This document shows, one piece after another, positions 11,741-39,252 of a stretch of 64,000 bases of DNA. Source of the stretch: an uncultured Acidobacteriota bacterium. Its GTDB lineage: Bacteria; Acidobacteriota; Terriglobia; Acidiferrales; UBA7541. The position numbers and the translations under genes were made by a program. The stretch covers positions 16,470-80,469 of the forward strand of contig CAWBIY010000001.1 in the NCBI GenBank assembly GCA_963788915.1, in the 5' to 3' direction. The notes under the pieces are model-generated. The model had not been told where the DNA came from. It searched no databases and saw only the letters and a list, made by a program, of their open reading frames with translations. The number at the start of each line of letters is the position of its first letter. Within the stretch, counting starts at the first letter, position 1.

Positions 11741-11770
11741 AGTCCTGGCAAATGTGCTTACCGGACAGGT
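11741..11770 (+). repeat. Dyad site, copy 1 (AGTCCTGGCAA-ATGTGC-TTACCGGACAGGT)
   Basis: Member of a dispersed repeat family; 11 nt downstream of the outer intron 3' end. Confidence 0.7.
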
Positions 11771-11893
11771 GACTTTAGCGACCCAAGCGGCGAGCCCGAC
11801 TAAGTTGGTCGTTCAGGCCCACACTTGCAGCGTCTCCACCAAACTGTTTGCTTGCCGGAGCGTGCAGGAGAACGGCGAGAGGGAGTACAGCGG

Positions 11894-12136
11894 TTAGCCG
11901 AATGCGATCATCAGAGCCTCGCGGCACGATTCGCTGGCCTGCTCATCGCTCACGTGCGTATAGATCATTGTGTTGGAAATGTTTTTGTGGCCCGCTCGTT
12001 TGGAGTATCCCGGTACAACGTACGTGTAGCTGGCTCCTGCGTCTTGGCGGTCAATTATTGTTACATCCATTTGGTTCGCGGATTTTCCCAAGCCGGCCAG
12101 AGCAAACAAGGTGAGAATCGCAGGAACGATCCTCAA
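11894..12136 (-). pseudogene. Chimera: secreted-protein N-terminus fused to a tyrosine-recombinase C-terminal tail
   Basis: Signal peptide + VTIIDRQD...YTYVVPGYS, then GHKNISNTMIYTHVSD (recombinase H...Y motif). Confidence 0.55.
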
Positions 12137-12279
12137 TACAGATTTGAGCGTTGGGCACCTCTCTGAAAATGATAGACCGAGCCCATTGAAACTAACGATA
12201 AGCGGATCATTAAGTGTCGTAAGAGGAAGCGGCTAAACCTTCCGTACCATTGCCGGCCGCTAACGCCGCGCATAGCTAA

Positions 12280-12630
12280 ATGATGCGCCTCGCGCTCATC
12301 TTGGCCTGTCTAGCGACGATAGCCGGAAGACTCGCCTATGCTGGCTACCGTGAACGCACGCCGAATCTCAAACCGGCTCGGGCTGCTTTTCAAGCCATAA
12401 ACACTCAGTATTTCGACGGTCAGTTGCCTACGCCGGTATTCCGCTATGCAGACTTGCCAGATGCGTTAGCGACAACGATTCAGGGAAGCGACGGACGTTT
12501 TCTAATTGAGCTTCGACCGGGCGTTGACCTGAGCGTGTTACGGCATGAGGCTTGTCACATCTTCACTTGGGACGAAGACGCGGACCACGGCCCTCAATGG
12601 GCTGCCTGTATGGAGCGATTCGCAAAATAG
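12280..12630 (+). CDS. Small secreted SprT-like zinc metalloprotein
   Basis: Signal peptide; IN..YFDGQLP; LRHEACH (HExxH); HGPQW. Confidence 0.7.
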   Translation: MMRLALILACLATIAGRLAYAGYRERTPNLKPARAAFQAINTQYFDGQLPTPVFRYADLPDALATTIQGSDGRFLIELRPGVDLSVLRHEACHIFTWDEDADHGPQWAACMERFAK

Positions 12631-12771
12631 GATGAGCGATTACCTGGATGACACTCCTTAGGAAAAGGAAGTCAGTGCCCGATTGGTCGCATTACCAGGA
12701 CAGATGCCGTATTAGGTCAGGTTGATTGGTTGGGGGCGTGTCGGTGTTTCGAGAACCGGCGCGTCCCGCTT

Positions 12772-13089
12772 TTACCCAAGAAGCTTACGTAACTTGCGTA
12801 CCGACTCTTCTGAAAACACACCCTGTGTCTCGTGGCCTTCGCTATCGCTCAATGTGTAGAAGATGGGAAAACTAATCTCGTTTAACGGTACATCGGGCGA
12901 GATTTGCCTGGGTTTCACCTTCCCGGCAGTGTCAAAGACAAACTCCATATCGATAAGAATTTGATCATTGATTTCCGTAATGAGGATGTGCAGGGGCGGC
13001 TTCAGGGTGCCATCTTCCACGGCAGCGTCGGTTTTTACCGCTATAGCAGTGAGAATCGTCTCCCAGCCTTCCGATTGTAATCTCGCCAT
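12772..13089 (-). CDS. Hypothetical protein
   Basis: 105-aa ORF with ATG and an upstream GGAGG. Confidence 0.5.
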   Translation of the reverse strand: MARLQSEGWETILTAIAVKTDAAVEDGTLKPPLHILITEINDQILIDMEFVFDTAGKVKPRQISPDVPLNEISFPIFYTLSDSEGHETQGVFSEESVRKLRKLLG

Positions 13090-13289
13090 CTGCTCACCTC
13101 CGGCACGTCCCGCTTACTGCTTACAACTGAAAGGGGCCCGGAGAAGATTTCTCAGACGCAATTCAAGGAAATTTATACTGAAACGATGGCAGAGTTCGTC
13201 CATTGATCGTAGGTTCGATCTTGACCGCGAGCGGTTGAAACCGTTGCTGTGGCTAAATCTCAGCGATGGGCCGCACGACGGATTCGAGA

Positions 13290-13796
13290 TTAGTGCTGTC
13301 GCTGCACCAATGGGATCTGCGATGCCAGTTGCAGGTCGATCAAGCTGCTTATGCGACGGTCGATCTGAAAGAAGGTGGCGGTCTTGGTCCCCGGCAGCAC
13401 GGTGCTGATGATCGGAACGTACTTGATGCGGAGCTGCGCAATAGACTCGTCCAAGGCCAATGAGCGATCGATTAAGCTCCTTGCCTGACCATCCGTCAAT
13501 GAACCGTAGTTCTGAGCGTACTCCTTGATCAAGGCGTACTTCTGATCGCCGACTTTCGTCATTTCCGCAGCGTACTGGTCATAAACCGGCCAGAATTTTG
13601 TCGCCTCCGCGTCTGTCAGGATTAAATTCGCCGCAACCAGCTGTTTTTTCCCCGACCGGAGATCCTGTCGCAATAGCTGGATATCCTGGTCGGTGACGGT
13701 TGGGGAATCCTTGCTGGCCGACGACTGGGCGTGCGCAGCTGGGACCACCAATACCCACGTGCTCGCCAAAACGACTGCAACGATTTTATTTCTCAT
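13290..13796 (-). CDS. Secreted helical protein (LT..EA.KFWP.Y..Y family); paralog of 53331-53879
   Basis: Signal peptide; LTDAEATKFWPVYDQY...LIDLQLASQIPL. Confidence 0.75.
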   Translation of the reverse strand: MRNKIVAVVLASTWVLVVPAAHAQSSASKDSPTVTDQDIQLLRQDLRSGKKQLVAANLILTDAEATKFWPVYDQYAAEMTKVGDQKYALIKEYAQNYGSLTDGQARSLIDRSLALDESIAQLRIKYVPIISTVLPGTKTATFFQIDRRISSLIDLQLASQIPLVQRQH

Positions 13797-14075
13797 ACCG
13801 GTCCTCCTCGAAACTAATCGAATGGACTCCCTCCTCTGAACATGTTGACTTTACGAATCTGAGGCTGCCACCAGGGGCCAGGTCGCCCAACTGTCAATAG
13901 TTACAGGCCATGGCGCTCGGTCAACAACGATGGAGACTGAAAGCCCGGCTCAGACATGAGCCAAATTGGCAGCGGTTTGGATGCCCACCGCCCTCGTTTG
14001 GCCGAGAAGGCTGTCAAAAGTGACAGTATTCGCAGCAGAGTCCTCTCCCCGAGCATCACTGCAGTGGGGGCATCC

Positions 14076-14720
14076 ATGCCACTACCGCGAGTCATACTCG
14101 CCGATGATCACACGATTCTTCTCGAGGCACTTCACAAGCTCTTAGAGCCCCATTGCGAAATTGTGGGCACTGTAGCGGATGGCCGCACTTTGCTGAAAAC
14201 CGCGCTGGAGCTTAAACCCGATGTGATCGTCGCGGACATCAGCATGCCGCTGATGAACGGTCTGGAAGCCGGGGCGCGATTGAAGGAAGCGCTGCCCAGA
14301 ATGAAGCTCATCTACTTGACAACGAAGGAGGACCCGGACTTAGCTGTGGAAGCCTTGCGCTGCGGGGCGTCCGGCCATCTATTGAAGACTTCCGCCGTCA
14401 AGGAATTGATTCGGGCCATCCAATTGGCACTCAAGGGAAAATCGTACGTTACACCGCAGATGGCGAGGAGAATGCAGAAGCCATTCAATAAGAATCCTAA
14501 CAACGGACCGAAAGCGCGCGCCAAGATCCTGACCGCTCGGCAACGGGAGGTCATGCAACTGTTGGCCAGGGGAAAATTCATGAGGGAAGTGGCCGGCGTC
14601 TTGAATGTGACTAAGCGGACTGTGGCATATCACAAGTATCACATCATGGAAGTACTGAATCTCAAGACGAATGCCGACTTCATTCGATTCGCCATCGAAT
14701 CACGGATTCTCAAACCCTGA
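14076..14720 (+). CDS. NarL/FixJ-family response regulator (REC + LuxR HTH)
   Basis: VILADDH, PDVIVADISMPLMNG, LTARQREVMQLLA, TV.YHKYHIM..L. Confidence 0.93.
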   Translation: MPLPRVILADDHTILLEALHKLLEPHCEIVGTVADGRTLLKTALELKPDVIVADISMPLMNGLEAGARLKEALPRMKLIYLTTKEDPDLAVEALRCGASGHLLKTSAVKELIRAIQLALKGKSYVTPQMARRMQKPFNKNPNNGPKARAKILTARQREVMQLLARGKFMREVAGVLNVTKRTVAYHKYHIMEVLNLKTNADFIRFAIESRILKP

Positions 14721-14926
14721 GATCTGCGCGCCCTGGTGGCCCAGACCACCGCGTACCAACTGACGGACACAGGACCGAGAGGTGTTACCAAGCCAAGACG
14801 GACGGTCGAGGTGAACCCCTTCGATGGAACCCCTACCCGACATGCAGAGTAATTCTCGAAATGCGGCGGCATCCACCAGAGCTTTCGTTTCGAAGAAAGG
14901 GCGAATTGTTTTGGAACTCCCGGGTA

Positions 14927-14959
14927 GGTCCTGGTAAACGCAGCGGTTACCGGACAAGT
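14927..14959 (+). repeat. Dyad site, copy 2 (GGTCCTGGTAAACGCAGCGGTTACCGGACAAGT)
   Basis: Same arms as copies 1 and 5, with a longer spacer. Confidence 0.7.
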
Positions 14960-15236
14960 CTGCCCGCACGAAGAATCAACAAGTTACACAGAACGTCACG
15001 AACCGATACCGAATGCTACAAGTGCAACGCCGACTTGCGCTTAACCGCGGGACACGAACGGCTGGTAGCACTCAGTAGGGCTCGGTGGTGGGCACAAGTT
15101 GAGGCGGAGTTGTTTCAAGCAAGAAGTCCCGCTCTGGCAATCTTGACAGTTTCCGCCAAGTTCATTCCCTGATTTAATTTGGTTCCCTCCGTGAAGAGGT
15201 TCTGAGATTTAGATCGAATGTTTCCGGGCCCGCGTT

Positions 15237-15968
15237 ATGGAAGTCACCAAATTCAGATCACGACTGTTTGTTGCACTGGAGCAGATGACGGTACATCTTC
15301 GTCAGCATACGCTCACCGTATTGGGAAGAAGTGTCGCCAGGAGTCGAAGACTCGAGGAAGCACTTCGCGGCAGCAAGAGCCCTTTGCGAAAGTTAGTAGC
15401 AATATCTCGCGATGCAATCGTTGCGACGAACGCCAAAATCGCCAGAGAACTGTTTATCGGGTTGGGACAGGTAGCGATACATCTTCTGCAAGCACAGAAC
15501 ATAGTCATGAGATTGGGAAGAAGTGTCGCTAGCAAACCCCGAAGACTACAGGAGGCACTCCGTGCAAGGGAGAATGATTTACAGACGTTACTCGTAAGCT
15601 CTCCCGATGCAATCGTCGTGACAAACTGTGACCGCCGTTTTGTTGCCGCAAATCCGAAGGGCCTCGATTTATTTGGCGTCTCAGAAACCAATATGAGGAA
15701 GTTCACCTTTGAGACCTTTCTTTGCCGCGGTCAAATTTCAGAATTCAAGGGACATGGTTCGCCTTTCAGAAGACGAAAGGTGAAGTATGGGAGATGCGAG
15801 ATTCGGCGTTTGGACGGAAGCCTGCGAGTCGCAGAGTGCCGTTTTTTCGCAAACTTTGTCCCTTTTCGACATCTATACAAGTTCCGTAACGTTATGGCAA
15901 CAAATCAATACCAGCCTGCCACACTGAGAACACCAGCTAGCACATGCCCAAAAACAAGGGGGTCTTAA
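15237..15968 (+). CDS. Orphan PAS-domain protein with a tandemly duplicated N-terminal segment
   Basis: Two copies of LF..L.Q...HL.Q...LGRSVA...RRL.EALR; PAS motif SSPDAIVV...FVAANPKGLDLFG. Confidence 0.65.
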   Translation: MEVTKFRSRLFVALEQMTVHLRQHTLTVLGRSVARSRRLEEALRGSKSPLRKLVAISRDAIVATNAKIARELFIGLGQVAIHLLQAQNIVMRLGRSVASKPRRLQEALRARENDLQTLLVSSPDAIVVTNCDRRFVAANPKGLDLFGVSETNMRKFTFETFLCRGQISEFKGHGSPFRRRKVKYGRCEIRRLDGSLRVAECRFFANFVPFRHLYKFRNVMATNQYQPATLRTPASTCPKTRGS

Positions 15969-16149
15969 TGGGTCGACGCAACACTCAGCTCGAACCCACC
16001 TTGCATTGAAAACAAAAGCTAAAATCGCTCGCTAGATTAGACCAGCCGGAAGGCTACCCTGGCCACAGACCGAGAGCCCCAAAGATTTGGTACCCACGTC
16101 GTAGAACTAGCAAGTAACGGGTCTCTCGCGCAAAAGTTGACCGGCGGCG

Positions 16150-16770
16150 TCAGGAAGATAGAGTTTTGAGCCATCCCACGAATCGCGCCCGATCTTCCTG
16201 CTCCATGGCTACGAACTTCACGCCCATGCCTTGTTTGGGACTACTTCTTTGGACAGCAGCACGAGCGCGAACTTCCCCTGTCGGCGCATCGAGCAGCAAC
16301 TGAATGAAGGTTCCCATTGCCGGCGGGCTTGGGGTAAGGATGAACAGTCCGCCCAACCCAAAGTTGTCTACCGCGGAGACCAGTCTCGTGTTGGAACTAT
16401 GCCAAGCGACGATCGTCCCTTTCGGGGCCGGAAGCCGAGGATAAACACGACGTTCACTGTCCTCGGCTAACATACCGGCAAAAGGGATGCGCTCCGACCC
16501 TCGGTGGCCAATAAGTAGCGCCAAGTCGGCAGCCATCGGAGCGGCACATTCGAAGCCAGAATAGGCTTCGATCAGGACCTTGGCGATCCGGGCGGCCCCT
16601 GGAGAAAAAAAGAAAAGTTGAGGTGAAACAACAACGCTAGTCGTGAAAATGGCTGCATCTGCGGGGATGCCGTTTGCCATAAACAGGTCTTCGAAGGCTT
16701 CCTGCAGCGAGAAACGCTTACCGGCGAGAACGTCCTCACCGGAGAGAGTCACTTTGTACCAGGACGCCAT
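16150..16770 (-). CDS. PilZ-domain protein with an N-terminal domain of unknown function
   Basis: ERRVYPR and DNFGLGGLFI (RxxxR and DxSxxG-like), GMGVKF. Confidence 0.75.
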   Translation of the reverse strand: MASWYKVTLSGEDVLAGKRFSLQEAFEDLFMANGIPADAAIFTTSVVVSPQLFFFSPGAARIAKVLIEAYSGFECAAPMAADLALLIGHRGSERIPFAGMLAEDSERRVYPRLPAPKGTIVAWHSSNTRLVSAVDNFGLGGLFILTPSPPAMGTFIQLLLDAPTGEVRARAAVQRSSPKQGMGVKFVAMEQEDRARFVGWLKTLSS

Positions 16771-17104
16771 AGCGACATTCCTCTTGAGCTATGACCGTAT
16801 CGGGTGTCGTGTTTCAGCGATCCATTTCTCTAAAACCAACTGATCCTTCTCTTCGATCTTGGTAAAGGCGACTCCCTTGCCGCCTCTTGCGTGAACATTA
16901 GGGCACTCGCTAGTCCGCTTGCGCTAGCGCGCTAGAGGCGCGCACGCACCGGATGTGCAGCAAATCTCTGCGCTGGAAGGGAGGAGTTGGGGAACATTTG
17001 GGTGTGTTCCCCGACTCCGGCGAGCTGTGCAAGGTCGGAGGTCGCACCGAACGCTCACCTGCGAACGCATGCTTAGCTGTTTAGACTTGGCCCCGTTCCT
17101 AAGC

Positions 17105-17124
17105 AACTAGGGGAATCCCTAGTT
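17105..17124. promoter_or_regulatory. Palindromic motif AACTAGGG-GAAT-CCCTAGTT (variants at 18585-18604 and 20344-20363)
   Basis: Perfect 8-bp arms; three intergenic copies within 3.3 kb. Confidence 0.5.
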
Positions 17125-20022: not shown

Positions 20023-20116
20023 CTCGCGTGAACCGTCTCAGAAGGTGAGGAGAAGTGTCTTGGCGGCGTAACTTTCGCCTTGGATCGCAAATCCAAAAAC
20101 AGTTCGGCGAAAGTCA

Positions 20117-20185
20117 ACTCCTGTTAATGCGCAAACCGGACAAGTCCTCAGTACCCAAGTTACCGGTAACGCGACAAATCAGGAA
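20117..20185. repeat. Two dyad sites head to head (20117-20145 on +, 20157-20185 on -)
   Basis: ACTCCTGTTAATGCGCAAACCGGACAAGT and, on the minus strand, TTCCTGATTTGTCGCGTTACCGGTAACTT. Confidence 0.65.
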
Positions 20186-20415
20186 TTAGCCGGGGGTATG
20201 TGGAGCGGCACCACGTCGCCACCCTGCCAAGCGTGTTGTCAGTGCTCTCTGGAAAGTGCGTAGGGGAAACAAATGAGGGGACTTAGCTGGGTGGCCCCGA
20301 ACCTTTTGCTGTCAGCTTTGCCGTTACTTTACGAGTAGAGGAGGCCCAGGGGGATCCCTAGTTGCGCGCGAGCCACGCGCCGTCGTAAATATTGCCCGTA
20401 TCGGGGAGGTGCGAC

Positions 20416-20952: not shown

Positions 20953-20971
20953 GTCACCGAAAGTCTGATTA

Positions 20972-21515
20972 ACGCTGCCAGTTCAGACGGTCGATGCAAC
21001 ACTGGCTTGCAGTTTACTCGCCGGAGTCTGAAAACCTAAAGTCTGTCTAGCGCGCTGATTTAAGCGCAGTGCGACCCGATCGAGCTGTGCCTGAGAGTAG
21101 ACAGATAGGTTGGTTCCTCGCGGGAAGTATTGCCTTAAAAGGAGGTTGGTGTTTTCGTTCGTGCCGCGCTGCCAGGGACTTTGCGGATCGCAGAAATAGA
21201 CCTGCACATCCGTAGCTACCGTAAAGTCCTGGTGTCTCGCCATCTCCAGTCCGCGGTCCCACGTCAGCGAGCGCCGCAGGGTAGCGGGGAGTTTACGAAT
21301 ATGCCGACTCAATGCCGTCACCACCACTGCGGAGTCTTTGCTGGGCACCTTGATCAGCATGGCAAAGCGTGAATGACGCTCCACTAACGTCACGATGTGA
21401 CTGTTCCGTGAGCCGCTTAACAGATCGCCCTCCCAATGACCAGGGACCGCGCGGTCCGCAACTTCAGCGGGTCTTTCCCGGATCGAGATGGCTTTGGGAA
21501 TTTGACCGCGCGGGT
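20972..21515 (-). mobile_element. IS30-family transposase, 3' half only
   Basis: ISIRERPAEVADRAVPGHWEGD...TLVERHSR...PWQRGTNENTNLLLRQYFPRG...VASTV*. Confidence 0.85.
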
Positions 21516-21519
21516 GTCG

Positions 21520-22268
21520 GCATCGAGACCAGCAGCAGCGCTGATCACCATGTTGTGAAAGGACAGCTCGAACGGAAGAAGAAGCAGGTCGAGATTCGCG
21601 GGCTAAACAGAAATTATAATCACGATCTGAAAAATCTTTTCAAGGGAGCGGCGATCGTCGCCGCGACCAAGCCCGGTCCCTTCGCGGAGTTCTATGCGGA
21701 ATTGTTGGCTAAAGGCATGCGGCAGGAAATGGCGCGGCTGACCCTGGCCAGGAAGATTGCCACCATCGTTCTGATCGTGTGGAAGAGAGGAGTGCGCTTC
21801 GACGCCCAACATCTGAAACCACAAACAGCTTGAGTGTTTCTGAGCGCTTCCGCTCCATCCCGGGGATCTCTCTGGCGGTGGCCGTCAAGTTCTCGAGACA
21901 CTCTGGTTCGAGAGCAAGTCTCAGCCGATAAGTTAGACGCTGCGTGCTTCGCGCACCCAGTCTCACACCCGACGCTAGGCCCTCTCGGATAACCAGAAAA
22001 AGCTATGGGCCACGAGTCCCGGATAGAACTATGGTCGCCAACTGACCGAGATTCTGCTTTGCTGGTTTCGGGACTGACCGGCTTCGTTGCGAACCGGCAA
22101 TGAAAACCGCTGGTAGCGAAAACCCAAACCGCCGGGCCACCGTGTCCAGCAACCGAGCACCTGGCGCGGCAGGTCAGAACAGATCCTGCTCAATCAATTG
22201 GGCTGCGAAGCGAGAAAACGTCCAGCCATTAGAGATGTGTCTTTTCTTGACTTCTACCTTTATAGAAC
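21520..22268 (+). mobile_element. IS110-family element A, 5'-truncated (transposase tail 21520-21833, long 3' NCR, right end)
   Basis: RGLNRNYNHDLKNLFKGAA...ARKIA; ends CTTGACTTCTACCTTTATAG|AAC; highly similar to element B. Confidence 0.85.
21834..22265 (+). ncRNA. Putative bridge/seekRNA-encoding non-coding region of IS110 element A
   Basis: CCGATAAGTT (21925-21934) is the reverse complement of junction AACTTATCGG (22266-22275); ATAGAACT (22023-22030) equals the element end. Confidence 0.65.
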
Positions 22269-22280
22269 TTATCGGGAGTT

Positions 22281-22556
22281 AGGGGCCGGGGAGCGCGAGG
22301 ATACTGCGCCGTGCGGGAAGGCATCGCTGTGAAAACCGTGTGGCCAGGGCTTGCCATCCATACTGACTCCCCGATGAGTGCTGCCAGGATCGCGGAAGTG
22401 TTCGTCGAGCACCAACGATCCGGTTTGTGCGTCAAAGTTCCCAAGTCTTTGGCGCGGTAGGTTCGAACCGATCAGGCTCATTCACGTGGGCTGGGAAGCA
22501 AGAAAAGCTCGGGTCGATGCAGTTGTGTTTTTTCTTGACTTCCCGTTTTGTAGAAC
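22281..22556 (+). mobile_element. Right-end remnant of a related IS110 element (D)
   Basis: Ends GTGTTTTTTCTTGACTTCCCGTTTTGTAG|AACTTAGCAGG, homologous to the ends of A and B. Confidence 0.6.
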
Positions 22557-24960: not shown

Positions 24961-24974
24961 GGCTAGCTGACCCT

Positions 24975-25003
24975 GTGCCTGGTAAACGCGAAACCGGAAA
25001 CTT
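24975..25003 (+). repeat. Dyad site, copy 4 (GTGCCTGGTAAACGCGAAACCGGAAACTT)
   Basis: Same family of arms. Confidence 0.65.
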
Positions 25004-25027
25004 GGGTTCCGGCAAGCAGATGGACGA

Positions 25028-25258: not shown

Positions 25259-25292
25259 TCGGAAGAGCGGCCATCTGGAAGTCTCTCGCTCA

Positions 25293-25323
25293 AGTCCTGG
25301 TTAACGCGCAAACCGGACAAGTC
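25293..25323 (+). repeat. Dyad site, copy 5 (AGTCCTGGTTAACGCGCAAACCGGACAAGTC), abutting the right end of IS110 C
   Basis: GTCC(T)GGTT...AACCGGAC dyad. Confidence 0.75.
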
Positions 25324-26357
25324 CTATAAAAAGGAATGTCAAGATAAAAGCCCTCCCTTCCGGTCCGATGCCGGTCCTTTTCGCCTAGTTGGGCATTCAG
25401 CCCAACTGTTTGAACGTGCTCCCTCGAGGTTCCATTTCGCTGTCGTGACGGCGTCAATCGTTTTCTGAAACAACAAGCCTGACGGTTGTCCACGGGATGA
25501 GTGGCAACGCCTGGTCCTATTGGAGACTCGCGGCCTAGGGCTTTCTTCGATTGTCCGAGAGGGCCTAGGGTGGATTCGGAGACGCGCGGGCTTAAAGCAC
25601 GGGCCTGACTTGTCCGATGGATACTTCCCCTCGAAACCGAGCGTCTCAAGAAGCCGACGGCCACCGCCAGGAATGGTTCCCAGGAGGACCGGACTCTTTG
25701 CCAGAGACGCTCAAGCTGCTTGTGGTTTCAAATAGTTGGCGTCGAAACGGACCTCCTTGTTCCAGACGATCAACGTGATCGCGGCAATCTGCCTCGCCAA
25801 GGTCCGGCGCGCCATCGTGGGCTTCCTTCCTTTGGCCAACAAAGCCTCATAGAAATCGCGGAGTGGTCCACTACGGCTGCTGACTCTTGTTGCTGCACCC
25901 TTAGAGATATCTTTGAGGTCGTGGTTGTGGTCCTTATTGAGGCCACGCAGCGTTACCGATTTCTTGGAGCGATTTAGCTGTCCATCCACAAGGCGGTATG
26001 GCGCACTGTCATGCGTTTCTAATCCCAGACCACTGTAGGTCCACAGCTGTCGCTGGGTGCGGAATCGGTGGGGTGTCTGGAGGAGTGCGACCAACAGAGC
26101 TGACCGGATCGGACCGCTCCCCGGAATCAGGCGCAATAGTTTCCACGCCTTGTGTTTTCTGCTCTCGGCCAGGAGATCGCGTCGCACTTCCTGGCGCAAC
26201 AGCCGTAAGACATCGAGCTGTTGGTCGTAGTGTTCGGCGCGTCGCCGGACGCCGGCTTCGGTGATCTTGCTGAGCCATTCCGAACGGTGGCGTGGTGCAT
26301 ACACTTCGTTGCCGGCACACGGAATGCCCCAACTGCGATACAACGCCTTGAGCGCCT
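25321..26357 (-). mobile_element. IS110-family element C, 5'-truncated (transposase C-half 25711-26357, NCR 25324-25710)
   Basis: YRSWGIPCAG...QTPHRFRTQRQLWTYSGLG...ARQIA; right end CTTGACATTCCTTTTTATAG|GAC. Confidence 0.85.
25324..25710 (-). ncRNA. Putative bridge/seekRNA region of IS110 C
   Basis: CGGACAAGTC (25616-25607) is the reverse complement of junction GACTTGTCCG; ATAGGAC (25520-25514) equals the element end. Confidence 0.65.
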
Positions 26358-27735
26358 GGACTTTATCCACGGGCTTCGCGGAGAGTTGCAGGTCACTTTT
26401 GAAGAAGGAACCTGGGCGACCTGGTTGTACGATCTGCTGAAACCGCACGTAACGAAACTGGTGGTGTGCGATCCGCGGAAGAATAGCAGACAGGGGAATA
26501 AGAATGACCGGATCGATGCACGCGAGCTGTCCGACCGGTTGTACATGAACAAGCTCAGCTCGGTCTATCACGGCGGCGCAGGAGTCCGCACGCTGAAGGA
26601 ACTGGCACGCAGCTATCTGACCATCAGCAAAGATCTCGCACGAGTCATGACCCGGGTGAAGGCGATCTATCGCAGTTGGGGTATTCCTTGTGCCGGCAAG
26701 CAAGTCTATGCGCCGCGTCATCGTGCCGAGTGGCTGGCGAAGATCACCGAGGTGGGGGTGCTTCGCCGGGCCGAGTTTTACTACCAGCAACTCGATGCCC
26801 TGAGGTCGTTGCGCCACGAAGTACGGCGCGATCTGTTAGCCGAGAGTAAGAAGCACAAGGCGAGCGAAACTGCTCTGCCAGATCCCTTCGATCGGTCCGA
26901 TCCGGGCGGCGCTGTTGATCGCGCTGATCCAGACACCGCACCGCTTCCGCACCAAGCGACCACTCTGGAAATACAGCGGTTTTGCCATCGAAACGCACAG
27001 CAGTGCCGATTACCGTAAAGTCCAAGGACAGCTAGAACGAACCAAGAAGCAAGTTTCGGTTCGTGGACTCAACCGAGACTGCAATCACGATCTGAAGAAT
27101 CTGTTTAAGAGCGCCGCCACCATCGCTTCGGTCAAACCGGGTCCGTTCCAGGAGTTCTACGCGGCCTTGGTGGCCAAAGGGATGAGACCGGAGATGGCAC
27201 GCCTGACCCTGGCGAGAAAGATTGCCACGATCGTATTGATCGTATGGAAGAAAGGAGTGAGCTTCGACGCCAAATATCTGAAACCACAAACAGCTTGAGT
27301 GTCTCTGATCGAGTCCGCTCCATCCCGGGGATCTTCTCTGGCGGTGGCCGTCAGGTTCTCGAGACACTCTGGTTCGAGAGCGAGTCTCAGCTGATAAGTT
27401 AGGCGCTGCGTGCTTCGGGCACCTAGTCTCACAGCCGACCCTAGGCCCTCTCGGACAACCAGAAAAAGCTATGGGCCACGAGTCCCGGATAGAACTATGG
27501 TCGCCAAATTTGACCACGTTCTGCTTTGTTGGTTTCGGAACTGACAGGCTTCGTTGCGAAGAAGCGATGAAAACCGCTGGTAGAGAAAACCCCAACCGCT
27601 GGGCCACACTGCCCAGCAACCGAGCACTTGGTGCGGACGGTCAGAACAGATCCTGCTCCATCAAGTGGGCTGCGAAGCAAGAAAAATTCCGGCCAATGCA
27701 GAAGTGTTTTTTCTTGACTTCTACCTTTATAGAAC
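26358..27735 (+). mobile_element. IS110-family element B, 5'-truncated, transposase frameshifted near 26868
   Basis: VTFEEG...KNDRIDA (RuvC-like DEDD part), C-terminal domain, NCR, end CTTGACTTCTACCTTTATAG|AAC. Confidence 0.88.
27299..27732 (+). ncRNA. Putative bridge/seekRNA region of IS110 B
   Basis: CTGATAAGTT (27391-27400) is a 9/10 match to the reverse complement of junction AACTTACCAG; ATAGAACT at 27489-27496. Confidence 0.6.
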
Positions 27736-27932
27736 TTACCAGGACTTGAGAAGGTTCAGTCCGCTGGGAGCAACGTCAACCTCAGAGCGTCTTTCTCGAA
27801 ACCTCCGCGCTTCAGCCAGCAATCGACACTCCGCAAAATTGGCACTCTTCTCTGTGCAGCGGGGTTACATATTCCGTTACGGAAACTGACGGCTCGCGGC
27901 ATCCAATATCTTGCGTTCGCTATAATTAACGC

Positions 27933-33900: not shown

Positions 33901-34935
33901 AACGTCGTCTTTAACCCGACCTCGGTGACACCGCCCGCGCGTGCCGCCACGTTGATCCTCACAGACGATGCCGCGAACAGCCCGCAAAGCGTACCCGTTA
34001 CCGGCAACGCCATCGCTCCGGCCATCAGCATCACTCCCGCCAGCCTGACCTTTGCCAGTCAGACGGTGAAAACTCAGTCGGCGCCTCAGACGGTCACCAT
34101 CAAGAATACGGGCACCGGGCCCTTATCCTTCACCGGTACCGGCATCACCATCGCCGGTGCCAACGCTGCTGACTTTGCTATCGTCGGCGCGGGCGATACG
34201 TGTTCCCCTCCCCTGGCCGCGGGTGCGACGTGCAGCTTCAACGTCGTCTACAATCCAGCCGCAGCCGGGACAAGCACCGCGACGATCGTTGTGGCTGACA
34301 GCGTTCCATCCAGCCCGCAACTGATCCCCTTGAGCGGCACAGCCACGGCTACGCCCCCAACGCTGGCCTTAACCTTTGGTCCCGCTGCTGGCGCCTCGCC
34401 ATCACAAACCGTTACCGCCGGCCAGACGGCCACTTATATGTTGCAAATCGGCGCGAACGTGAATGCCAGCGTAACCTTCAGTTGCTCTGGCGCTCCGACG
34501 GCTGCGACGTGCCCTGCTCCGGCCACCGTCGCATTGACTGCCAATACACCGGCTCCCGTCGCCGTTACCGTGTCGACCACCGCCCGCAGCATGCTGGCAC
34601 CGCAATCGGAACCCGCGACCAGGATGCAACCTCCCGTCGCGCTCCAGATGTTGCCGCTCTCCGTGCTGGCCATGCTCCTGTTGATCATCACCTTGCTGGC
34701 CGCAACACAGAGTCCGGCAGGACGCCTGCGCTTCGCCCGCGTAGCACTCTCTGCCTGCCTCGTGCTGATGCCCATCGTCGCCGCTACGCTAATGGGCGGT
34801 TGCGGCGGCGGAAGCTCCAGCCCACCGCCACCACCACCAGTCACCGGAACGCCCGCTGGCACCTACATGATCACCGTCACGGCAACCTCCGGCAGCACCA
34901 CGGCAACGACTCAGTTGACGCTGGTCGTGCAGTAG
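30955..34935 (+). CDS. Large surface protein: signal peptide, many NHL repeats, three ASPM-SPD-2-Hydin/choice-of-anchor-D-like Ig domains, C-terminal TM segments and acidobacterial GCGGG...TYxITVTATSG tail
   Basis: Repeated L..P.G..vD..GNlyIAD..N..IR.V and G..GDGG.A..A.L units; LTF..Q......Q.VTL.N.G repeats. Confidence 0.88.
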   Translation: MKNLAVSLCALAVSLFGGMTVDAQITTVAGGGPPTTGTTVNKTGTSIGAPAAVRQDHLGNTYILDNDLGRVFKVDAMGHLTLFAGNGTVGYNGDNIPAVSAAMDGPSGLCIDANNNVYIADSDNAIVREVVVATGMIHTVAGMPMETNFTYGGDGGLATSANLHFPDGCSFDSRGNLYIADRGNNAIRIVILGTPTAAFPTVGNIYRFAGANPAANPAPPPALLPPAPGYGPDNTPAIGAALNGPFDVFVDTADNVFIADLGNPGTTSNNVVREVPATTPQTFPFVMAVGNIYTVAGMHGQSGAATSGVPATMAKLNGPEGIFVDIHQNLFFVDVGNQVVREVAGPTPSAGMTAGDIYTIAGNASKGYAGDGGVAISASLANPAGSFVDATGSVFIADESNTRIRQVTSTTANYTTETISTWAGNGSISFFNAAPATAGQLDAPAGLAVDATGDLAIADVGFQGEQSLIRKVATPIASGALSTLVGSPGFNGFVNATNTGFPNYVENDAIGVAFDSSGNLYIADTGNCIVRKLSAGVMTTVAGVEPTIDVANPPNSTPNCGFAAQGGAAVGTLLGAVNSVALDATGDIFFSDATNNMIWEVPKNTAGTMTAGNAYVIAGVQDTTGSFGGEAGAAVNAHFNKPTGVSFDVYGNLFIADTGNNIIREIPADNTAGKTAGFIYTVAGDKAGQTAGYAGNGGVATAAKLNAPFTMVVDNAEDIFIADTNNHVIREVAGTTAGGKTAGDIYTVVGTNVAGFTGDGGPAATAELNAPQGLALDGAGDLLIGDSQNIRVRSVAGIANVAAVPVASFQPSNLTFTAQPLTVKSTAQVVTLTNNGGTMLTGIAITLGGTNAANFADTTTCTAALAAGANCTISVTFTPTVVGPASATLSIADNAVGSPQTIALTGTGQLGSPTDVVTPNPIAFTTPQLVGVASAALPVTLSNGGTGALVISSITFGGANTTDFTQTNNCGTTVAAGATCTINVVFNPTSVTPPARAATLILTDDAANSPQSVPVTGNAIAPAISITPASLTFASQTVKTQSAPQTVTIKNTGTGPLSFTGTGITIAGANAADFAIVGAGDTCSPPLAAGATCSFNVVYNPAAAGTSTATIVVADSVPSSPQLIPLSGTATATPPTLALTFGPAAGASPSQTVTAGQTATYMLQIGANVNASVTFSCSGAPTAATCPAPATVALTANTPAPVAVTVSTTARSMLAPQSEPATRMQPPVALQMLPLSVLAMLLLIITLLAATQSPAGRLRFARVALSACLVLMPIVAATLMGGCGGGSSSPPPPPPVTGTPAGTYMITVTATSGSTTATTQLTLVVQ

Positions 34936-36483: not shown

Positions 36484-36687
36484 ATGAGCGACGAAGTCAA
36501 GAACGTGGAAAACGAAGCACCGAAGGTGGAATCATCCGCACCGGAATCTGAACTGAAAGAGAACGAACTTGAAAAGGTCACAGGTGGGTTAAATCTTACG
36601 CCCCCTTCTGGCACGGCAACCGAGTCGCTGAAGAATCAGCATTTGAACAAGGCAAGCGACGATTGGGAGAGCCCGTTACAATCCTGA
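36484..36687 (+). CDS. Small peptide with a double-glycine-type leader (putative bacteriocin/RiPP precursor)
   Basis: AGGAGG RBS; acidic leader ending ELKENELEKVTGG. Confidence 0.6.
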   Translation: MSDEVKNVENEAPKVESSAPESELKENELEKVTGGLNLTPPSGTATESLKNQHLNKASDDWESPLQS

Positions 36688-36759
36688 CTATGCTGTAGCC
36701 CACTGCTCTTTCTCTCGGGTTAGAGCGAGCTAGGACAAGTGTTCCTAGAGACGGTGCAT

Positions 36760-37690
36760 GAACGCGGTCCGCCTCACCCCAGAGAAACCGCAACAGCGGG
36801 TTGCCTTGTTTACTCAGCCCCCCGAGCCGCTGTCGCCCTCCACTAGAATATTCACGTGGAATCATTCCCACATAACTAGCCAGGGCCTTGCTGTCTGCGA
36901 ATCGGGCGGGATCGCCCAGAAATACCTCGGTCGCCAACGCTGTGATCGGCCCCACTCCGGGATGGCTCATCAGCAGCCGTGCTCCGGGACGTTTGCAGGC
37001 TTGCTCCTCGACGCGCTGGTTCAGTTTCGCGATCTCCGCTTCGAACTTCTCGTACAGCGCCTGCAGCTCACTCCGCCGATAGGCGGTATGAGGCGCCAAC
37101 GACAACGATGCGATCCTGCTTTGCCCATCGTGGCTCCACAGGGCCGTGCCTCGCCGTAGGCCATTCGCTAGGGCAATGGACTGCAACGCATTTTGTATTC
37201 GCGTCCGCATGCGGACCCACTGATGACGATGCCGCAACAAGGCCCGCAGATCCTGTAGCTCCTTCGAAGGCAACCAGATTGCCGGAAAGCGGCCTTCCAC
37301 CAGCATCTGCAGAATCAACTCCGCATCTCGCCGATCATTTTTCTGCTTCCGCGGCGCGGCTGCGCGAATCTGTGCTGGATGGCCGACCCGGCATTCGATT
37401 CCCAGTTCTTCCATGAGATTCAAAAACCACTGCATCGATCCGTGGCTTCGATGCCCACTCGCGCCGGGCGTGGTAGCGAGGAATAAAACTCCCGCACGTT
37501 GTCGCCTTCGTGCTGGAGAGTCACCTCCAGTACCTCTCCCGTTGTGGTGTCCAACATCGCCAACGTTTGCTGGCGAGCGTGCAAATCACATCCTATAATT
37601 CGCATCTCGGCCTCCTTCGGTCCGAGCACTGTAGGGTGCACACCGAACAGCTTACTCGGGCCGTCGCGAGGCCGGCGTCGTTATGGCATC
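36760..37690 (-). mobile_element. IS110-family (IS1111-type) element E: left end and frameshifted, 3'-truncated transposase
   Basis: MRIIGCDLHARQQT (first catalytic D), KQKNDRRDA, SSGGRQRLG.LSKQG; subterminal IR 37670-37683. Confidence 0.88.
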
Positions 37691-38226
37691 AACCGGACAT
37701 CGCTAACAATGTCGGTCCTGTCAAACACTTTTTGAGCACACTTCTCAATTCACTTATAAGAGTTTTTTCCTCCCCTTCCTTGCTGTCTTTCTGATCGGCG
37801 CCTGCAAGCACGGCTCGTTCGTAATCTAGCGGTCGGTTTCAGTCCGACCCAAACATCTCGTGTGCTGAGCAGCGCGTTGTTCAGGAGGGTTAGAGTCCCT
37901 CTGGTGCTCGAATGAGGAGCGCCATATCCAAGAAAGTGGGGGTAATTCCTCGCTGGCCGGAGGAAGTGGAAGGTATGGAGACGTCTAGGCAGCGAGCCCT
38001 CATTATCAGTACGTCGTTATTACAGTGTCGGTGTCAGAGTTTGAAATGCAAAAGGAGTTGGACAAACACGCTTCGGAGGGATGAGAACTTGTTTCGCCAC
38101 TGTATACGGATCGGTTGTATCTAATTTTCCGCAAAGAGGCGCGTTGACTCCACAGTGCCGTAATCTCGTCGGTGTAATGCGGCGACACGCTGCCAGCGAC
38201 TTAGCGGTGTAGGTCATAGTGGTGTA

Positions 38227-38254
38227 GTGCCTGATAAACGCTAATCGGACAAGT
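38227..38254 (+). repeat. Dyad site, copy 6 (GTGCCTGATAAACGCTAATCGGACAAGT)
   Basis: Same family; just downstream of the CPBP gene. Confidence 0.65.
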
Positions 38255-38288
38255 GCCCATTCGCCCCGCCACATCGACTTTCTTCGTT

Positions 38289-39146
38289 TCAGGTGCTAAT
38301 CGCATTTGTGGTGTTTCTCAGCGTTTGCTTTCGCATATCGTTCAGGAAGTACGCGGCAGAGGCGCAGAGCAGCGCAAGCGAAATCCACGAAATGCGCGAC
38401 GCGTGGAATCCGAACGTATCGGTTCCACCGAGAACCCCTGACGGGACAATGTCCTTCGAGTTGTTGATCGCCGCATGCAGCAGCATCGTCAAGAGCAGGC
38501 TGCCGTTGGTGCGCGCGTACAGCCAAGCGAACGCCACGGACATCGCGGTCACCTGCAGCACGAATACCGGAAAGGCCTGCCGATAGGAATCGCCGTCACG
38601 AATGAAAAACTGCGGCAGATGCCATACGCCCCAGATGAACCCGAGCAGCACACTCGCGCTTCCCAGTCCGAAACGATCCGCCAGTCGGGGAAGGGCATAG
38701 CCGCGCCAACCGATCTCCTCTCCGCCCTGAAACGGGGTCGAAAATGCGATGGCAAACGGAATCAGGTACCACTGCGAGGTGTCAAAGCGCGGCCATGAAC
38801 TGGTTGAGGCACGGTAAATCATTGCAGCGGTTAGCTTAAGCGCAATCATGAATCCAAGTGCGAAGACGTAGTACTTCGCGGCGACGCTCCACCTCGTAAT
38901 TCTACGAAGGAGCGCGATCACGCCCGAGCGGCCCTCTGCGCGGAACGTAACCGCGAGCGCCGCCAATGCCGGAGCGAACGCCCCGAGCAGGATCAAGGCG
39001 CCCCCCAACGGCGAGCCTGCCGGTATCGGCACGACGGCGACGGTAAAGAAACAAATCCACATCAGCGCGAACGCCAGCGCGAAGAACACAAACAGCGAAC
39101 TGGCTGACGAAACGTGCACCGTCGGTTCGAGGGACTCGGCAATCAT
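38289..39146 (-). CDS. CPBP-family intramembrane glutamic endopeptidase (CAAX protease/Abi)
   Basis: GEEIGWRGYALPRL, WGVWHLP, LHAAIN motifs; multi-TM. Confidence 0.92.
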   Translation of the reverse strand: MIAESLEPTVHVSSASSLFVFFALAFALMWICFFTVAVVPIPAGSPLGGALILLGAFAPALAALAVTFRAEGRSGVIALLRRITRWSVAAKYYVFALGFMIALKLTAAMIYRASTSSWPRFDTSQWYLIPFAIAFSTPFQGGEEIGWRGYALPRLADRFGLGSASVLLGFIWGVWHLPQFFIRDGDSYRQAFPVFVLQVTAMSVAFAWLYARTNGSLLLTMLLHAAINNSKDIVPSGVLGGTDTFGFHASRISWISLALLCASAAYFLNDMRKQTLRNTTNAIST

Positions 39147-39252
39147 GCAAGCAGCCTCAGATGTGAGGGAAAGATGCCGCGCGGGGCAAGGAACAAACTA
39201 TACCACTCCTCAGAGGCAGCGAAGCCTGCGCAGTCAGTGCCTGGTAAACGCG

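What the first reader, a model, noticed from the sequence alone, without database searches (positions are those of the whole stretch)
11741..39252. Dispersed ~30-bp dyad sites punctuate the island and attract several mobile elements: possible undescribed cassette/recombination-site system
Seen: seven intact copies of (A/G)(G/T)(T/G)CCTG(G/A)TAA-spacer-(T/A)(T/A)ACCGGA(C/A)AAGT at 11741, 14927, 20117, 20157 (-), 24975, 25293 and 38227. Half sites cut by IS ends lie at 22266, 22554, 27733, 37691 and 39237. All are in intergenic or gene-breakpoint positions left of the tRNA att site; by eye I found none right of 40.7 kb. The arms form an imperfect inverted repeat (GTCC-T-GGTAA / TTACC-GGAC) with one unpaired T and a 6-9-nt spacer. 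Known: XerCD dif/pdif sites are 11-6-11 dyads with inner TAA/TTA edges, integron attC sites fold into hairpins with extrahelical bases, and both are known safe-harbour targets of IS1111-type elements (attC also of group IIC introns). Inference: this is a recombination-site family delimiting gene modules in Acidobacteria. The unrelated small genes and truncated fragments between sites, a tyrosine-recombinase tail near copy 1 and the integrase at 39.5 kb fit that idea.
Basis: partly seen in the sequence, partly recalled or inferred. Interest (0 to 1): 0.85.

Follow-up and report, generated by a model that had tools for sequence, protein, structure and literature searches.

The report
Acidobacterial repeat targeted by RNA-guided IS
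The ~30-bp sites are real copies of a short repeat found across soil Acidobacteriota, and it attracts insertion sequences because their guide RNAs are complementary to it; nothing tested here shows that it is a new gene-cassette recombination site.

Summary
The window has 8 full units (9 pattern matches against 1.0 expected by chance) plus 5-6 IS-cut half units. All lie between 11.7 and 39.3 kb.

The unit belongs to a repeat family found in over 100 Acidobacteriota MAG tiles. Its full form is a ~85-nt head-to-head doublet: an L unit, a loop and an inverted R unit. Elements are intergenic and cluster in local arrays. Within an array they are almost always co-oriented.

Three lineages of IS1111-type (IS110-family) elements insert at three fixed positions in the unit. 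Their 3' non-coding region carries guide segments that covary copy by copy with the flanking unit sequence. One insertion has an empty site in a sister contig. This explains why the sites attract these IS elements.

No test supports a recombination-site or cassette system. Unit spacing varies, there is no dif or attC signature, no recombinase is associated, and genes show no orientation relative to the sites. A REP-RAYT link was also tested and not found.

My best reading is a REP/BIME-like interspersed repeat used as an RNA-guided landing pad. The co-oriented, island-like arrays remain unexplained and keep a minority cassette reading alive.

The parts
11740..11771 (+). Unit 1, degenerate L-type (AAGTCCTGGCAAATGTGCTTACCGGACAGGTG). 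It lies about 18 nt 3' of a group II intron end.
12672..12703 (-). It reads as an R-type unit, so it has the same polarity as the others.
14926..14960 (+). Unit, L-type, the best-conserved arms in the window. It lies 205 nt downstream of a response-regulator gene.
20112..20191 (+). The only complete doublet in the window: L unit 20116-20146 (+), a 10-nt loop, and R unit 20157-20187 (-).
   Evidence: covariance model 48 bits; the fold is degenerate
21513..22268 (+). IS1111-type element B, a 3' fragment whose right end finishes in AAC at 22266-22268. Its guide CCGATAAGTT at 21925-21934 is the exact reverse complement of the junction AAC|TTATCGG.
22269..22282 (-). Distal part of an R unit, cut by IS B.
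22449..22556 (+). Short 3'-end fragment of a B-like IS. It is followed at 22557-22570 by the distal part of another R unit.
24974..25004 (+). Unit, L-type.
25292..25322 (+). Unit, L-type, directly abutted by the right end of IS type A.
25323..26353 (-). IS1111-type element A, the 3' ~1 kb with its right end at 25323. Its guide ATCGGACAAGT lies at 25608-25618 (-).
26356..27735 (+). IS1111-type element B, truncated at its 5' end. Its guide CTGATAAGTT at 27391-27400 matches the junction AAC|TTACCAG at 9 of 10 positions.
27736..27750 (-). Distal part of an R unit, cut by IS B. Together with 25292-25322 it probably formed a doublet before the IS insertions.
36758..36768 (+). Left part of a degenerate L unit split by IS C. 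It is contiguous with 37691-37702 in the sister contig L195.
36769..37690 (-). IS1111-type element C, a 922-bp copy lacking its 3' part (transposase ORF 36596-37435 by ORF call). It is absent from L195 and from a contig of run X3.
37691..37702 (+). Right part (AACCGGACATCG) of the L unit split by IS C.
38226..38255 (+). Unit, L-type, about 30 nt downstream of the stop codon of a CAAX-protease gene.
39236..39254 (+). Left half of an L unit (AGTGCCTGGTAAACGCGGT), cut by the right end of IS C.
39255..39509 (-). IS1111-type element C, a 3' fragment with its right end at 39255. It contains GTCCGGTTGAT, which equals the left flank plus the first 3 nt of the left end seen at 37691.
39514..40727 (+). 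Context at the edge of the site-bearing region: a frameshifted phage-type integrase pseudogene, followed by a ~47-nt tRNA 3' fragment on the minus strand at 40681-40727.

Best explanation
The sites are copies of a short interspersed repeat specific to Acidobacteriota.

**The repeat.** A unit has two conserved blocks, (Y)A(R)NT-CCTG-NTWA and AYCGGACAAGT, separated by a 5-10-nt spacer. The spacer comes in two conserved flavours: L (ACGCGnn) and R (GTCGGAT or GTCGCGT). The complete element is a ~85-nt head-to-head L-loop-R doublet that can fold as a long hairpin. Many copies are solo or decayed units.

**Where it sits.** The repeat is intergenic and somewhat enriched at the 3' ends of genes. It accumulates in local arrays inside flexible regions.

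**What it resembles.** It behaves like a REP/BIME-type non-autonomous repeat. Copies at different loci and in different genomes share arbitrary loop variants, so they descend from one another by copying. That step is inferred, and the enzyme that copies them is unknown.

**Why mobile elements gather there (shown in silico).** At least three lineages of IS1111-type RNA-guided insertion sequences carry two guide segments in their 3' non-coding RNA, complementary to the two strands of the unit around their own insertion point. Type A inserts before TTGTCCGG, type B between CGAC and TAATCAGG of R units, and type C between AACGCG and AACCGGACA of L units. A conserved, multi-copy, non-essential sequence makes a safe landing pad.

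The 11.7-39.3 kb stretch of the window is such an array. It has since been riddled with decayed IS copies, and it lies beside an integrase pseudogene.
For: **The family is real and lineage-wide.**
About 104 are in Acidobacteriota MAGs, on several contigs per genome.
- The consensus and doublet architecture come from 128 strict hits and 32 doublets.

**Position.**
- 194 of 225 units lie outside long ORFs. Contexts are convergent 49, tandem 95, divergent 24.

**Copies related by descent.**
- Loop subfamilies recur within and between genomes, for example GGGTTTTAGTACCCAG, GTACTAGCCCGGA and GAAATCGGCCCAAAACCA.

**RNA-guided targeting.**
- Complete 1.57-1.61-kb elements carry an IS110-family transposase (NF033542, 239 bits). 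They have short subterminal inverted repeats, a 3-nt right extension and a ~440-nt 3' non-coding region. These are the IS1111 features described in PMC11187229.
- The guide covaries with each copy's own flank: CCGATTAGTT with AAC|TAATCGG, CTGGTTAGTT with AAC|TAACCAG, CCGATAAGTT with AAC|TTATCGG, CTGATTAGTT with AAC|TAATCAG. In type A, CGGACAAGTC pairs with GAC|TTGTCCG, and the second guide GGACCCA or GTACCCA equals the left flank.
- The window's own copies match at 10/10 and 9/10 positions, and type C at 11/11.
- The guide region folds into a conserved stem with compensatory pairs.
- Thirty-one junctions at the same positions were counted across tiles and window.
- Empty-site proof: L195 lacks the 922-bp IS C copy and shows an uninterrupted ATGAACGCGGT|AACCGGACA. 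The same joint appears in run X3.

**Precedent.** REPs are known IS110/IS1111 targets (PMC1525189, PMC11187229).
Against: - The repeat lacks features of classical REPs. It has no GTAG or CGTC tag.
- It has no association with RAYT genes. Eighty RAYT-homolog loci (281 kb) contain no unit, and the RAYT genes carry their own, different terminal repeats.
- L and R arms show no compensatory covariation: 79.9% of cells pair against 80.3% in shuffles. The hairpin may therefore be incidental.
- The strong co-orientation of elements within arrays is not expected for REPs or MITEs. Fifty-five tiles are pure against 5 mixed, and 49 of 50 adjacent typed singles agree.
- The apparent restriction to one to three regions per genome is also unexpected.
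- The exact sequence is conserved across many species, and doublets lie just upstream of conserved kinase promoters. Both could mean host function rather than selfish spread.
Confidence: 0.6

Rival explanations
1. The units are core sites of an undescribed site-specific recombination (cassette or module) system. A recombinase acting on co-oriented units inserts and excises the gene modules between them, in the manner of integron attC, pdif modules or tandem accretion at an att site.
For: - Arrays place an element in nearly every intergenic gap between unrelated single genes.
- Elements are co-oriented within arrays, independent of gene direction and of local GC skew. Neighbouring tiles mostly share polarity.
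- The doublet has a two-stem, internal-loop, variable-apical-loop layout that superficially recalls attC.
- Arrays look island-like.
- A 4.4-kb three-gene block starting 13 nt from a unit is replaced by 33 nt in other soil populations.
- A DinB-family gene flanked by units occurs in three different contexts.
Against: - No recombinase family is associated with the units. IS110-family transposases occur in 29 of 113 tiles, against 5 tiles for the largest integrase cluster.
- None of the tyrosine recombinases checked reaches a curated integron-integrase or Xer cut-off. The L086 and L041 genes have an N-terminus I recognise from memory as IS91-associated, and L027 carries a confirmed Y2 transposase beside such a gene.
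- Block spacing varies from 22 to 27 nt in the window.
- The AAC/GTT pair of attC is not conserved, and there is no similarity to dif.
- Genes are not oriented relative to the sites.
- The only indel seen is bounded by a unit on one side only and has filler DNA.
- No unit-to-unit excision joint has real support in metagenome contigs.
- Loop subfamilies indicate that the doublet itself is what gets copied.
Confidence: 0.12
2. The unit is a host cis-acting site, kept by selection rather than by copying. It could be the binding site of a regulator or nucleoid protein, or a transcript-end or insulator element. The IS elements simply exploit it.
For: - Exact 27-mers are conserved across many species while the flanks diverge.
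- Some units sit at orthologous positions, for example L068/L074 and L068/L101.
- Doublets lie a short, variable distance upstream of a conserved TTGACT-N17-TAAGAT promoter of Ser/Thr-kinase paralogs. Units also lie 5-180 nt upstream of all 6 PadR genes that have a unit nearby.
- There is no covariation that would indicate a structural RNA or single-stranded DNA constraint. That fits recognition as double-stranded sequence.
Against: - Arbitrary loop variants are shared among unrelated loci and genomes.
- Solo and truncated copies are abundant.
- Units occur at both the 5' and 3' sides of genes and in both gene orientations.
- They cluster in mobile-element-rich regions and are absent from 36 kb of ordinary genes in the window.
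- The genes next to units have no common function.
Confidence: 0.15
3. The units are the terminal repeats of a conventional transposon, and the doublets are its miniature (MITE) derivatives, mobilised in trans by a transposase encoded elsewhere.
For: - The doublet has inverted termini (CTAAGTCCTG ... CAGGACTTAG) and a short interior.
- Subfamilies exist.
- The distribution is local and patchy.
- Several transposase types are nearby: rve/IS30-like, IS91-like and RAYT.
Against: - No target-site duplication of 2-8 bp appears at any offset around 32 doublets.
- No transposase gene is flanked by two inverted units in any tile.
- The rve and IS91 genes are not bounded by units.
- Co-orientation within arrays is unexpected for cut-and-paste MITEs.
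Confidence: 0.1

Closest known systems
REP / BIME elements of Enterobacteria and Pseudomonas, and REPIN doublets
   Same: - Short (~30 nt), imperfectly palindromic and intergenic.
- Two unit subtypes in inverted orientation, separated by a few conserved linker types. This is the BIME logic of Y/Z REPs with defined linkers (from my own knowledge).
- Doublets that form long hairpins, with solo units as apparent remnants, as described for REPINs (PMC3337134 abstract).
- Specific targets of IS110/IS1111 elements (PMC1525189, PMC11187229).
   Different: - No GTAG or CGTC tag.
- No flanking of RAYT genes.
- No compensatory changes between the two arms.
- Apparently few, island-like arrays per genome rather than hundreds of dispersed copies.
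- Near-complete co-orientation within an array.
- The same consensus is shared across many species and genera.
IS1111-family elements with seekRNA (ISPa11 on P. aeruginosa REP; ISKpn4 and ISPst6 on attC; IS4321/IS5075 on Tn21 inverted repeats), and IS110-family bridge-RNA elements such as IS621 and ISPpu10
   Same: - DEDD transposase.
- Long 3' non-coding region.
- Short subterminal inverted repeats and a 3-nt right extension.
- Two guide segments, the first complementary to the top strand and the second matching it.
- Orientation-specific insertion at one position of a repeated, potentially folded sequence.
   Different: - These are new lineages in Acidobacteriota.
- Three lineages have partitioned one repeat into three insertion points.
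- One copy (36769-37690) is a 3'-truncated element still flanked by both intact target halves.
Integron attC sites and CALIN arrays
   Same: - Imperfect palindromes of 60-140 nt between unrelated genes.
- Co-oriented within arrays.
- Two stems, an unpaired internal region and a variable apical loop.
- Known IS1111 targets.
   Different: - No conserved RYYYAAC / GTTRRRY pair.
- Genes are not co-oriented with the sites.
- No integron integrase in any tile or in the window.
- Most copies are solo 30-nt units, too short to be an attC.
XerCD dif and pdif modules
   Same: Two ~11-nt arms with inner TAA/TTA edges around a short spacer, and sites that flank gene modules.
   Different: - Spacer length varies.
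- There is no sequence similarity to dif (my own knowledge of the consensus).
- pdif sites alternate in orientation around modules, whereas these sites are co-oriented.
- No plasmid context.

Membership tests
IS1111 family (for the IS elements at the sites) | DEDD (IS110-family) transposase | tested here: met
   Pfam DEDD_Tnp_IS110 plus Transposase_20, and NCBIfam NF033542 at 239 and 164 bits against a cut-off of 140.
IS1111 family (for the IS elements at the sites) | Long non-coding region downstream of the transposase gene, subterminal inverted repeats, and a 3-bp right extension (PMC11187229) | tested here: met
   The 3' non-coding region is about 440 nt. The left end TATAAAAGGG pairs with the right end CCCTTTATA, and the right extension is AAC or GAC.
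IS1111 family (for the IS elements at the sites) | seekRNA with a top-strand complement followed by a bottom-strand complement of the target | tested here: met
   Guides covary with flanks copy by copy, and the fold is conserved with compensatory pairs. Expression of the RNA was not tested.
REP / REPIN-RAYT system | Short intergenic imperfect palindrome occurring as inverted doublets | tested here: met
REP / REPIN-RAYT system | GTAG (or CGTC) tetranucleotide tag at one end (PMC3733652) | tested here: not met
   The position-specific counts give YA-R-N-T before CCTG, with no GTAG consensus.
REP / REPIN-RAYT system | Cognate RAYT gene flanked by the repeats | tested here: not met
   Three tiles have a bona fide RAYT (NF047646, 115 bits) 91-690 nt from a unit, but only on one side and with different terminal repeats of its own. 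Eighty RAYT-homolog loci contain no unit. A different, unsampled RAYT clade is not excluded.
REP / REPIN-RAYT system | Hundreds of dispersed copies per genome | tested here: inconclusive
Integron attC | Conserved R'' RYYYAAC and R' GTTRRRY boxes | tested here: not met
   C at -2, as the AAC triplet needs, occurs in only 32 of 140 units, so AAC in under a quarter. The facing sequence in R units is CGAC-TAATC.
Integron attC | Cassette ORFs co-oriented with the sites, and an intI gene at the array end | tested here: not met
   Genes on the 5' side split 93 to 78 and on the 3' side 81 to 101. No integrase reaches the integron-integrase cut-off.
XerCD dif / pdif | Two 11-bp arms around a fixed 6-bp (6-8) central region, with sequence related to dif | tested here: not met
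   The CCTG-to-CGG span is 22-27 nt in the window copies and 24-31 nt in strict hits. No dif-like arms were seen by eye.
XerCD dif / pdif | Recombination by XerC/XerD | not testable with these tools
   This needs EMSA or recombination assays.
MITE | Terminal inverted repeats plus a target-site duplication | tested here: not met
   Inverted termini are present, but no duplication of 2-8 bp appears at any offset around 32 doublets.
Known structured RNA (Rfam) | Match to a curated covariance model | tested here: not met
   Nothing matched over units in the window at gathering thresholds or in three dense tiles at E up to 1.

The most novel reading that the evidence does not exclude
The co-oriented arrays are the product of a directional DNA-processing mechanism that has not been described for this kind of site. 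Each array has one element per intergenic gap, separates unrelated genes, and appears to occupy only one to three regions per genome. The mechanism could be a recombinase-driven cassette or accretion system with a new site type. It could also be a strand-specific, replication-coupled copying mechanism that builds flexible gene arrays in Acidobacteriota. In either case the IS1111 elements would be secondary parasites of those sites.
Probability: 0.15. Interest if true: 0.85.

Novelty: new variant of a known kind. Interest (0 to 1): 0.5.

Why it matters
Acidobacteriota are among the most abundant soil bacteria, and almost nothing is known about their repeats or how their genomes change.

- **A defined repeat family.** This work defines a lineage-wide repeat family with a consensus, a doublet architecture and subfamilies.
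- **A natural case of guide-RNA partitioning.** Three RNA-guided IS1111 lineages have tuned their guides to three different positions of one repeat. This is a ready-made set of guide-target pairs with natural reprogramming.
- **A practical marker.** The repeat marks flexible regions in MAGs and explains assembly breaks there.
- **An open question.** If the co-oriented arrays prove to be recombination-built, that would be a new way of assembling gene arrays.

Tried and rejected
1. **tRNA att site.** ARAGORN and Rfam find no tRNA, only a 3' fragment.
2. **Group II introns as users of the site.** The intron end near copy 1 lies 18 nt away from the unit. The extra intron in strain L001 sits at 18073/18074 with no unit nearby. 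The conserved 20-mer upstream of some units is not an intron end.
3. **The motif as part of the IS itself.** Rejected. The flank differs when the IS sits elsewhere (L081), complete doublets exist without an IS, and an empty site is available.
4. **REPtron (RAYT) link.** Three RAYT genes lie near units, but 80 RAYT loci contain none.
5. **Rfam families and viral contigs.** No matches over units in Rfam; no match in viral contigs.
6. **Target-site duplications.** None.
7. **Hairpin covariation.** None beyond column composition.
8. **Polarity against replication.** No correlation with tile GC skew (56 concordant, 50 discordant) or with gene direction. GC skew is very weak in these genomes, so this test has little power.
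9. **Integron integrase or Xer next to arrays.** Not found.
10. **Unit-bounded modules in different contexts.** Only one weak case, a DinB-family gene.
11. **Unit-to-unit deletion joints in soil metagenome contigs.** None convincing. The 20182-to-25302 joint rests on 20 nt of repeat.
12. **Source organism.** Looking up two proteins from the right-hand half of the window (60072-62828 and 46749-47912) to identify the source genome found nothing on record.

Full report
**1. Observation**

The seven listed copies are at the stated coordinates. Half-site scans and a two-block PWM recover them plus an eighth, degenerate copy on the minus strand at 12672-12703. Full units score 22-33. Everything else scores 19 or less and consists of half units next to IS ends.

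The loose pattern CCTGNNWWN{5,13}WYCGGNNA gives 9 matches against 1.0 +/- 0.92 in shuffles. A profile HMM and a covariance model find nothing convincing outside 11.7-39.3 kb.

Three details of the finding do not hold. There is no tRNA gene, only a ~47-nt 3' fragment at 40681-40727. The integrase at 39.5-40.7 kb is frameshifted. No recombinase remnant was found near copy 1.

**2. The family outside the window**

About 104 are from Acidobacteriota MAGs: Acidiferrales, Acidoferrum, Sulfotelmatobacter, Terracidiphilus, Pyrinomonadaceae and Solibacter. About six of the rest look like chance hits.

Aligned hits show a conserved unit, (G)(S)YYA-R-N-T CCTG-N-T-W-A / spacer / A-Y-CGGACAAGT. In 46 of 128 strict hits an inverted partner follows after a 10-20-nt loop. 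The partner has the same arms but a different spacer: GTCGGAT or GTCGCGT instead of ACGCGnn.

The complete element is therefore an L-loop-R doublet of about 85 nt. The window's copies at 20117 (+) and 20157 (-) form such a doublet. Well-kept doublets fold as long hairpins (-21 to -25 kcal/mol, z -5.7 to -7.2). Single units do not fold reliably, and the window doublet is decayed.

L and R arms do not covary: 79.9% of cells pair against 80.3% in shuffles. Loops fall into a few subfamilies that recur at unrelated loci and in different genomes. I read this as descent by copying. There is no target-site duplication, no Rfam match over the units and no hit in viral contigs.

**3. Context and arrays**

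Units are intergenic. Convergent contexts outnumber divergent ones two to one.

The only gene family clearly enriched nearby is the IS110-family transposase, in 29 of 113 tiles. The other recurrent neighbours are large paralogous Acidobacterial families: Ser/Thr kinases with beta-propellers, MacB/FtsX permeases with PadR, histidine kinases, and short-chain dehydrogenases.

A profile HMM finds 327 units in the tiles, up to 12-13 per 8 kb. In dense tiles nearly every intergenic gap holds an element, and the genes between them are unrelated.

Hits from one genome fall on several contigs but often within 8-50 kb of each other. Long stretches of the same contigs have none.

I define polarity from unit strand and L/R type. 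By that measure 55 multi-element tiles are uniform and 5 mixed, and 49 of 50 adjacent typed singles agree. All window units share one polarity. Polarity does not follow tile GC skew or gene direction. This co-orientation is unexplained.

**4. Why mobile elements sit at the sites**

Self-comparison and comparison with the tiles resolve the IS debris into three element types.

Complete copies of types A (1612 bp) and B (about 1580 bp) have:
- the left end CGCAATATAAAAGGG;
- the right end CCTTTATAG plus AAC or GAC;
- a 364-377-aa longest reading frame for the IS110-family transposase;
- a ~440-nt 3' non-coding region.

These are the IS1111-family features described by Siddiquee et al. (PMC11187229).

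Type B always lies between ...CCGGTTAyCCGAC and TAATCAGGAGTT of an R unit. Type A lies in front of TTGTCCGG. Type C lies between AACGCG(G) and AACCGGACA of an L unit. Thirty-one such junctions were counted.

In the 3' non-coding region, a segment after GAGTCTCAG is the reverse complement of the last 3 nt of the IS plus the first 7 nt of the right flank. It changes with the flank in each copy:

| Guide segment | Junction it matches |
|---|---|
| CCGATTAGTT | AAC\|TAATCGG |
| CTGGTTAGTT | AAC\|TAACCAG |
| CCGATAAGTT | AAC\|TTATCGG |
| CTGATTAGTT | AAC\|TAATCAG |
| CGGACAAGTC (type A) | GAC\|TTGTCCG |

A second segment equals the left flank: GGACCCA or GTACCCA in type A, and ACGCGAC in type B.

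The window's own copies match at 10/10 positions (21925-21934 with the junction at 22266) and 9/10 (27391-27400 with 27733). Type C carries GTCCGGTTGAT, which is identical to the left flank plus the first left-end bases at 37691.

The guide region folds into a conserved stem with compensatory changes, and the guides lie in internal loops.

A second contig from the same sample (L195) is 99.9% identical to window 37691-49142 and then continues at 36768. It lacks the 922-bp type C copy and shows the uninterrupted site GCATGAACGCGGT|AACCGGACATCG. A contig of run X3 shows the same joint.

The attraction of these IS elements is thus explained by RNA-guided targeting. This is known biology (PMC11208160, PMC11187229, PMC1525189), seen here in new lineages.

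Group II introns in the window are not inserted in units. An IS91-type element abuts a truncated unit in one tile.

**5. What the repeat itself is**

*RAYT.* I tested the REP-RAYT model. Three tiles have a genuine RAYT (NF047646) 91-690 nt from a unit. However, the unit is on one side only, the RAYTs have other terminal repeats, and 80 homologous RAYT loci from metagenomes contain no unit. There is no GTAG tag. Membership in the RAYT-REP family is therefore not met, although the behaviour is REP/BIME-like.

*Integron attC.* This fails on the AAC/GTT boxes, on gene orientation and on the integrase.

*dif/pdif.* This fails on spacer constancy and sequence.

*MITE.* This fails on target-site duplication and on the absence of a parent transposon.

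*Host function.* A host-function reading has some support. The sequence is conserved across species, and doublets lie a short, variable distance upstream of a conserved promoter of kinase paralogs. The shared loop variants and the many decayed solo copies argue for copying instead.

*Cassettes.* The cassette reading keeps indirect support from the co-oriented arrays. There is also one 4.4-kb strain-level replacement (12717-17145) that starts 13 nt from a unit, though it has no unit at its other end.

**6. Verdict**

The claim of a new recombination-site or cassette system is not supported by any test I could run. It is also not excluded, because the array co-orientation and island-like distribution have no explanation yet.

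I classify the finding as a new variant of a known kind: an interspersed palindromic repeat that serves as a landing pad for RNA-guided IS elements. Interest is moderate.

Noticed in passing
window 7900-11722; L001 8069-9985: Group II intron pieces of three Rfam D1-D4 classes, one RT/maturase ORF (8505-9725) and a domain V at 11624-11699 look like nested or tandem introns. The near-identical contig L001 carries an additional 1917-bp group II intron with a 492-aa RT, inserted at window 18073/18074 just upstream of the ribosome-binding site of the OmpA-like gene.
   Followed up: partly
window 12717-17145: In contigs of three soil metagenome runs (X1, X3, X5), this 4429-bp block (response regulator, PAS protein, PilZ protein and unit 14926-14960) is replaced by 33 nt (ACCTCACTTAATGGGATGGGTTCGCGCCCACTC). 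The left edge lies 13 nt from the unit at 12672-12703, and the right edge 16 nt past the OmpA stop codon.
   Followed up: partly
window 15400-16063 and 19499-19960: Both stretches have very high depth in soil metagenome contigs, and many contigs join ~15985-16063 directly to ~19499-19506. They look like the two parts of a multi-copy element that is split in the window by 3.5 kb carrying the PilZ and OmpA-like genes. Its nature was not determined.
   Followed up: no
window 36769-37690: The type C IS copy lacks its 3' ~500 bp (the end of the transposase gene, the seekRNA region and the right end). Even so, it is flanked by both intact halves of its target and is precisely absent in L195. Either a truncated derivative moved, or a deletion ended exactly at the IS-flank junction.
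   Followed up: partly
window 39500-46000: Runs X2, X3 and X5 hold the region left of 39.2 kb but almost nothing from 39.5-46 kb, apart from the tRNA-like fragment. The DNA right of the integrase pseudogene (arsenic-resistance-like genes, phosphate-binding proteins) is therefore the strain-specific part in those populations.
   Followed up: no
window 30763-34935; L195 14343-17644: The 1390-aa NHL/teneurin-like repeat protein gene is only about 79% identical over 2.6 kb in the sister contig and is split there into two genes (376 and 481 aa). Flanking DNA is 96-99.9% identical.
   Followed up: no
L010, L011, L027, L036, L101 (and a similar sequence at window 7866-7885): A conserved ~20-nt sequence, GACGGGCAACCCGGAAGTAA, ends 5-7 nt upstream of L units in at least five tiles. 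In L096 it replaces the CCTG arm. It may be the end of another element that uses the unit, or an optional third module of the repeat. It is not a group II intron end by Rfam.
   Followed up: partly
L027 6181-7884; L041 4728-6900; L092; L086 4293-5173: An IS91-family element (Y2 rolling-circle transposase with zinc-binding domain) paired with a Xer-like tyrosine recombinase recurs in unit-rich tiles. In L041 its end abuts a truncated L unit (...CGTAGCC|TTCAAACGCC...).
   Followed up: partly
L024 7183-7701; L045 7536-8000; L110 4319-4801: Bona fide REP-associated tyrosine transposase genes lie 91-690 nt from units in three tiles, always with the unit on the 3' side. This is more than chance would suggest, but homologous RAYT loci elsewhere lack units.
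   Followed up: yes
L038, L042, L049, L098, L103, L104, L108 (upstream of Ser/Thr kinase genes): Paralogous or orthologous kinase genes share a promoter-like TTGACTT-N17-TAAGAT about 10 nt from the start codon. A doublet lies a short, variable distance upstream of the -35 box, usually in the same polarity relative to the gene (14 of 16).
   Followed up: partly
L052 921-976 (-): A type-P5 twister ribozyme match (46.7 bits against a gathering score of 37.6) occurs in an Acidoferrum MAG tile.
   Followed up: no
L013, L061, L113: True units, with typical flanks and loops, occur on contigs binned as Eremiobacterota (Baltobacteraceae) and Dormiibacterota. This reflects either mis-binning or horizontal spread of the repeat.
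   Followed up: no
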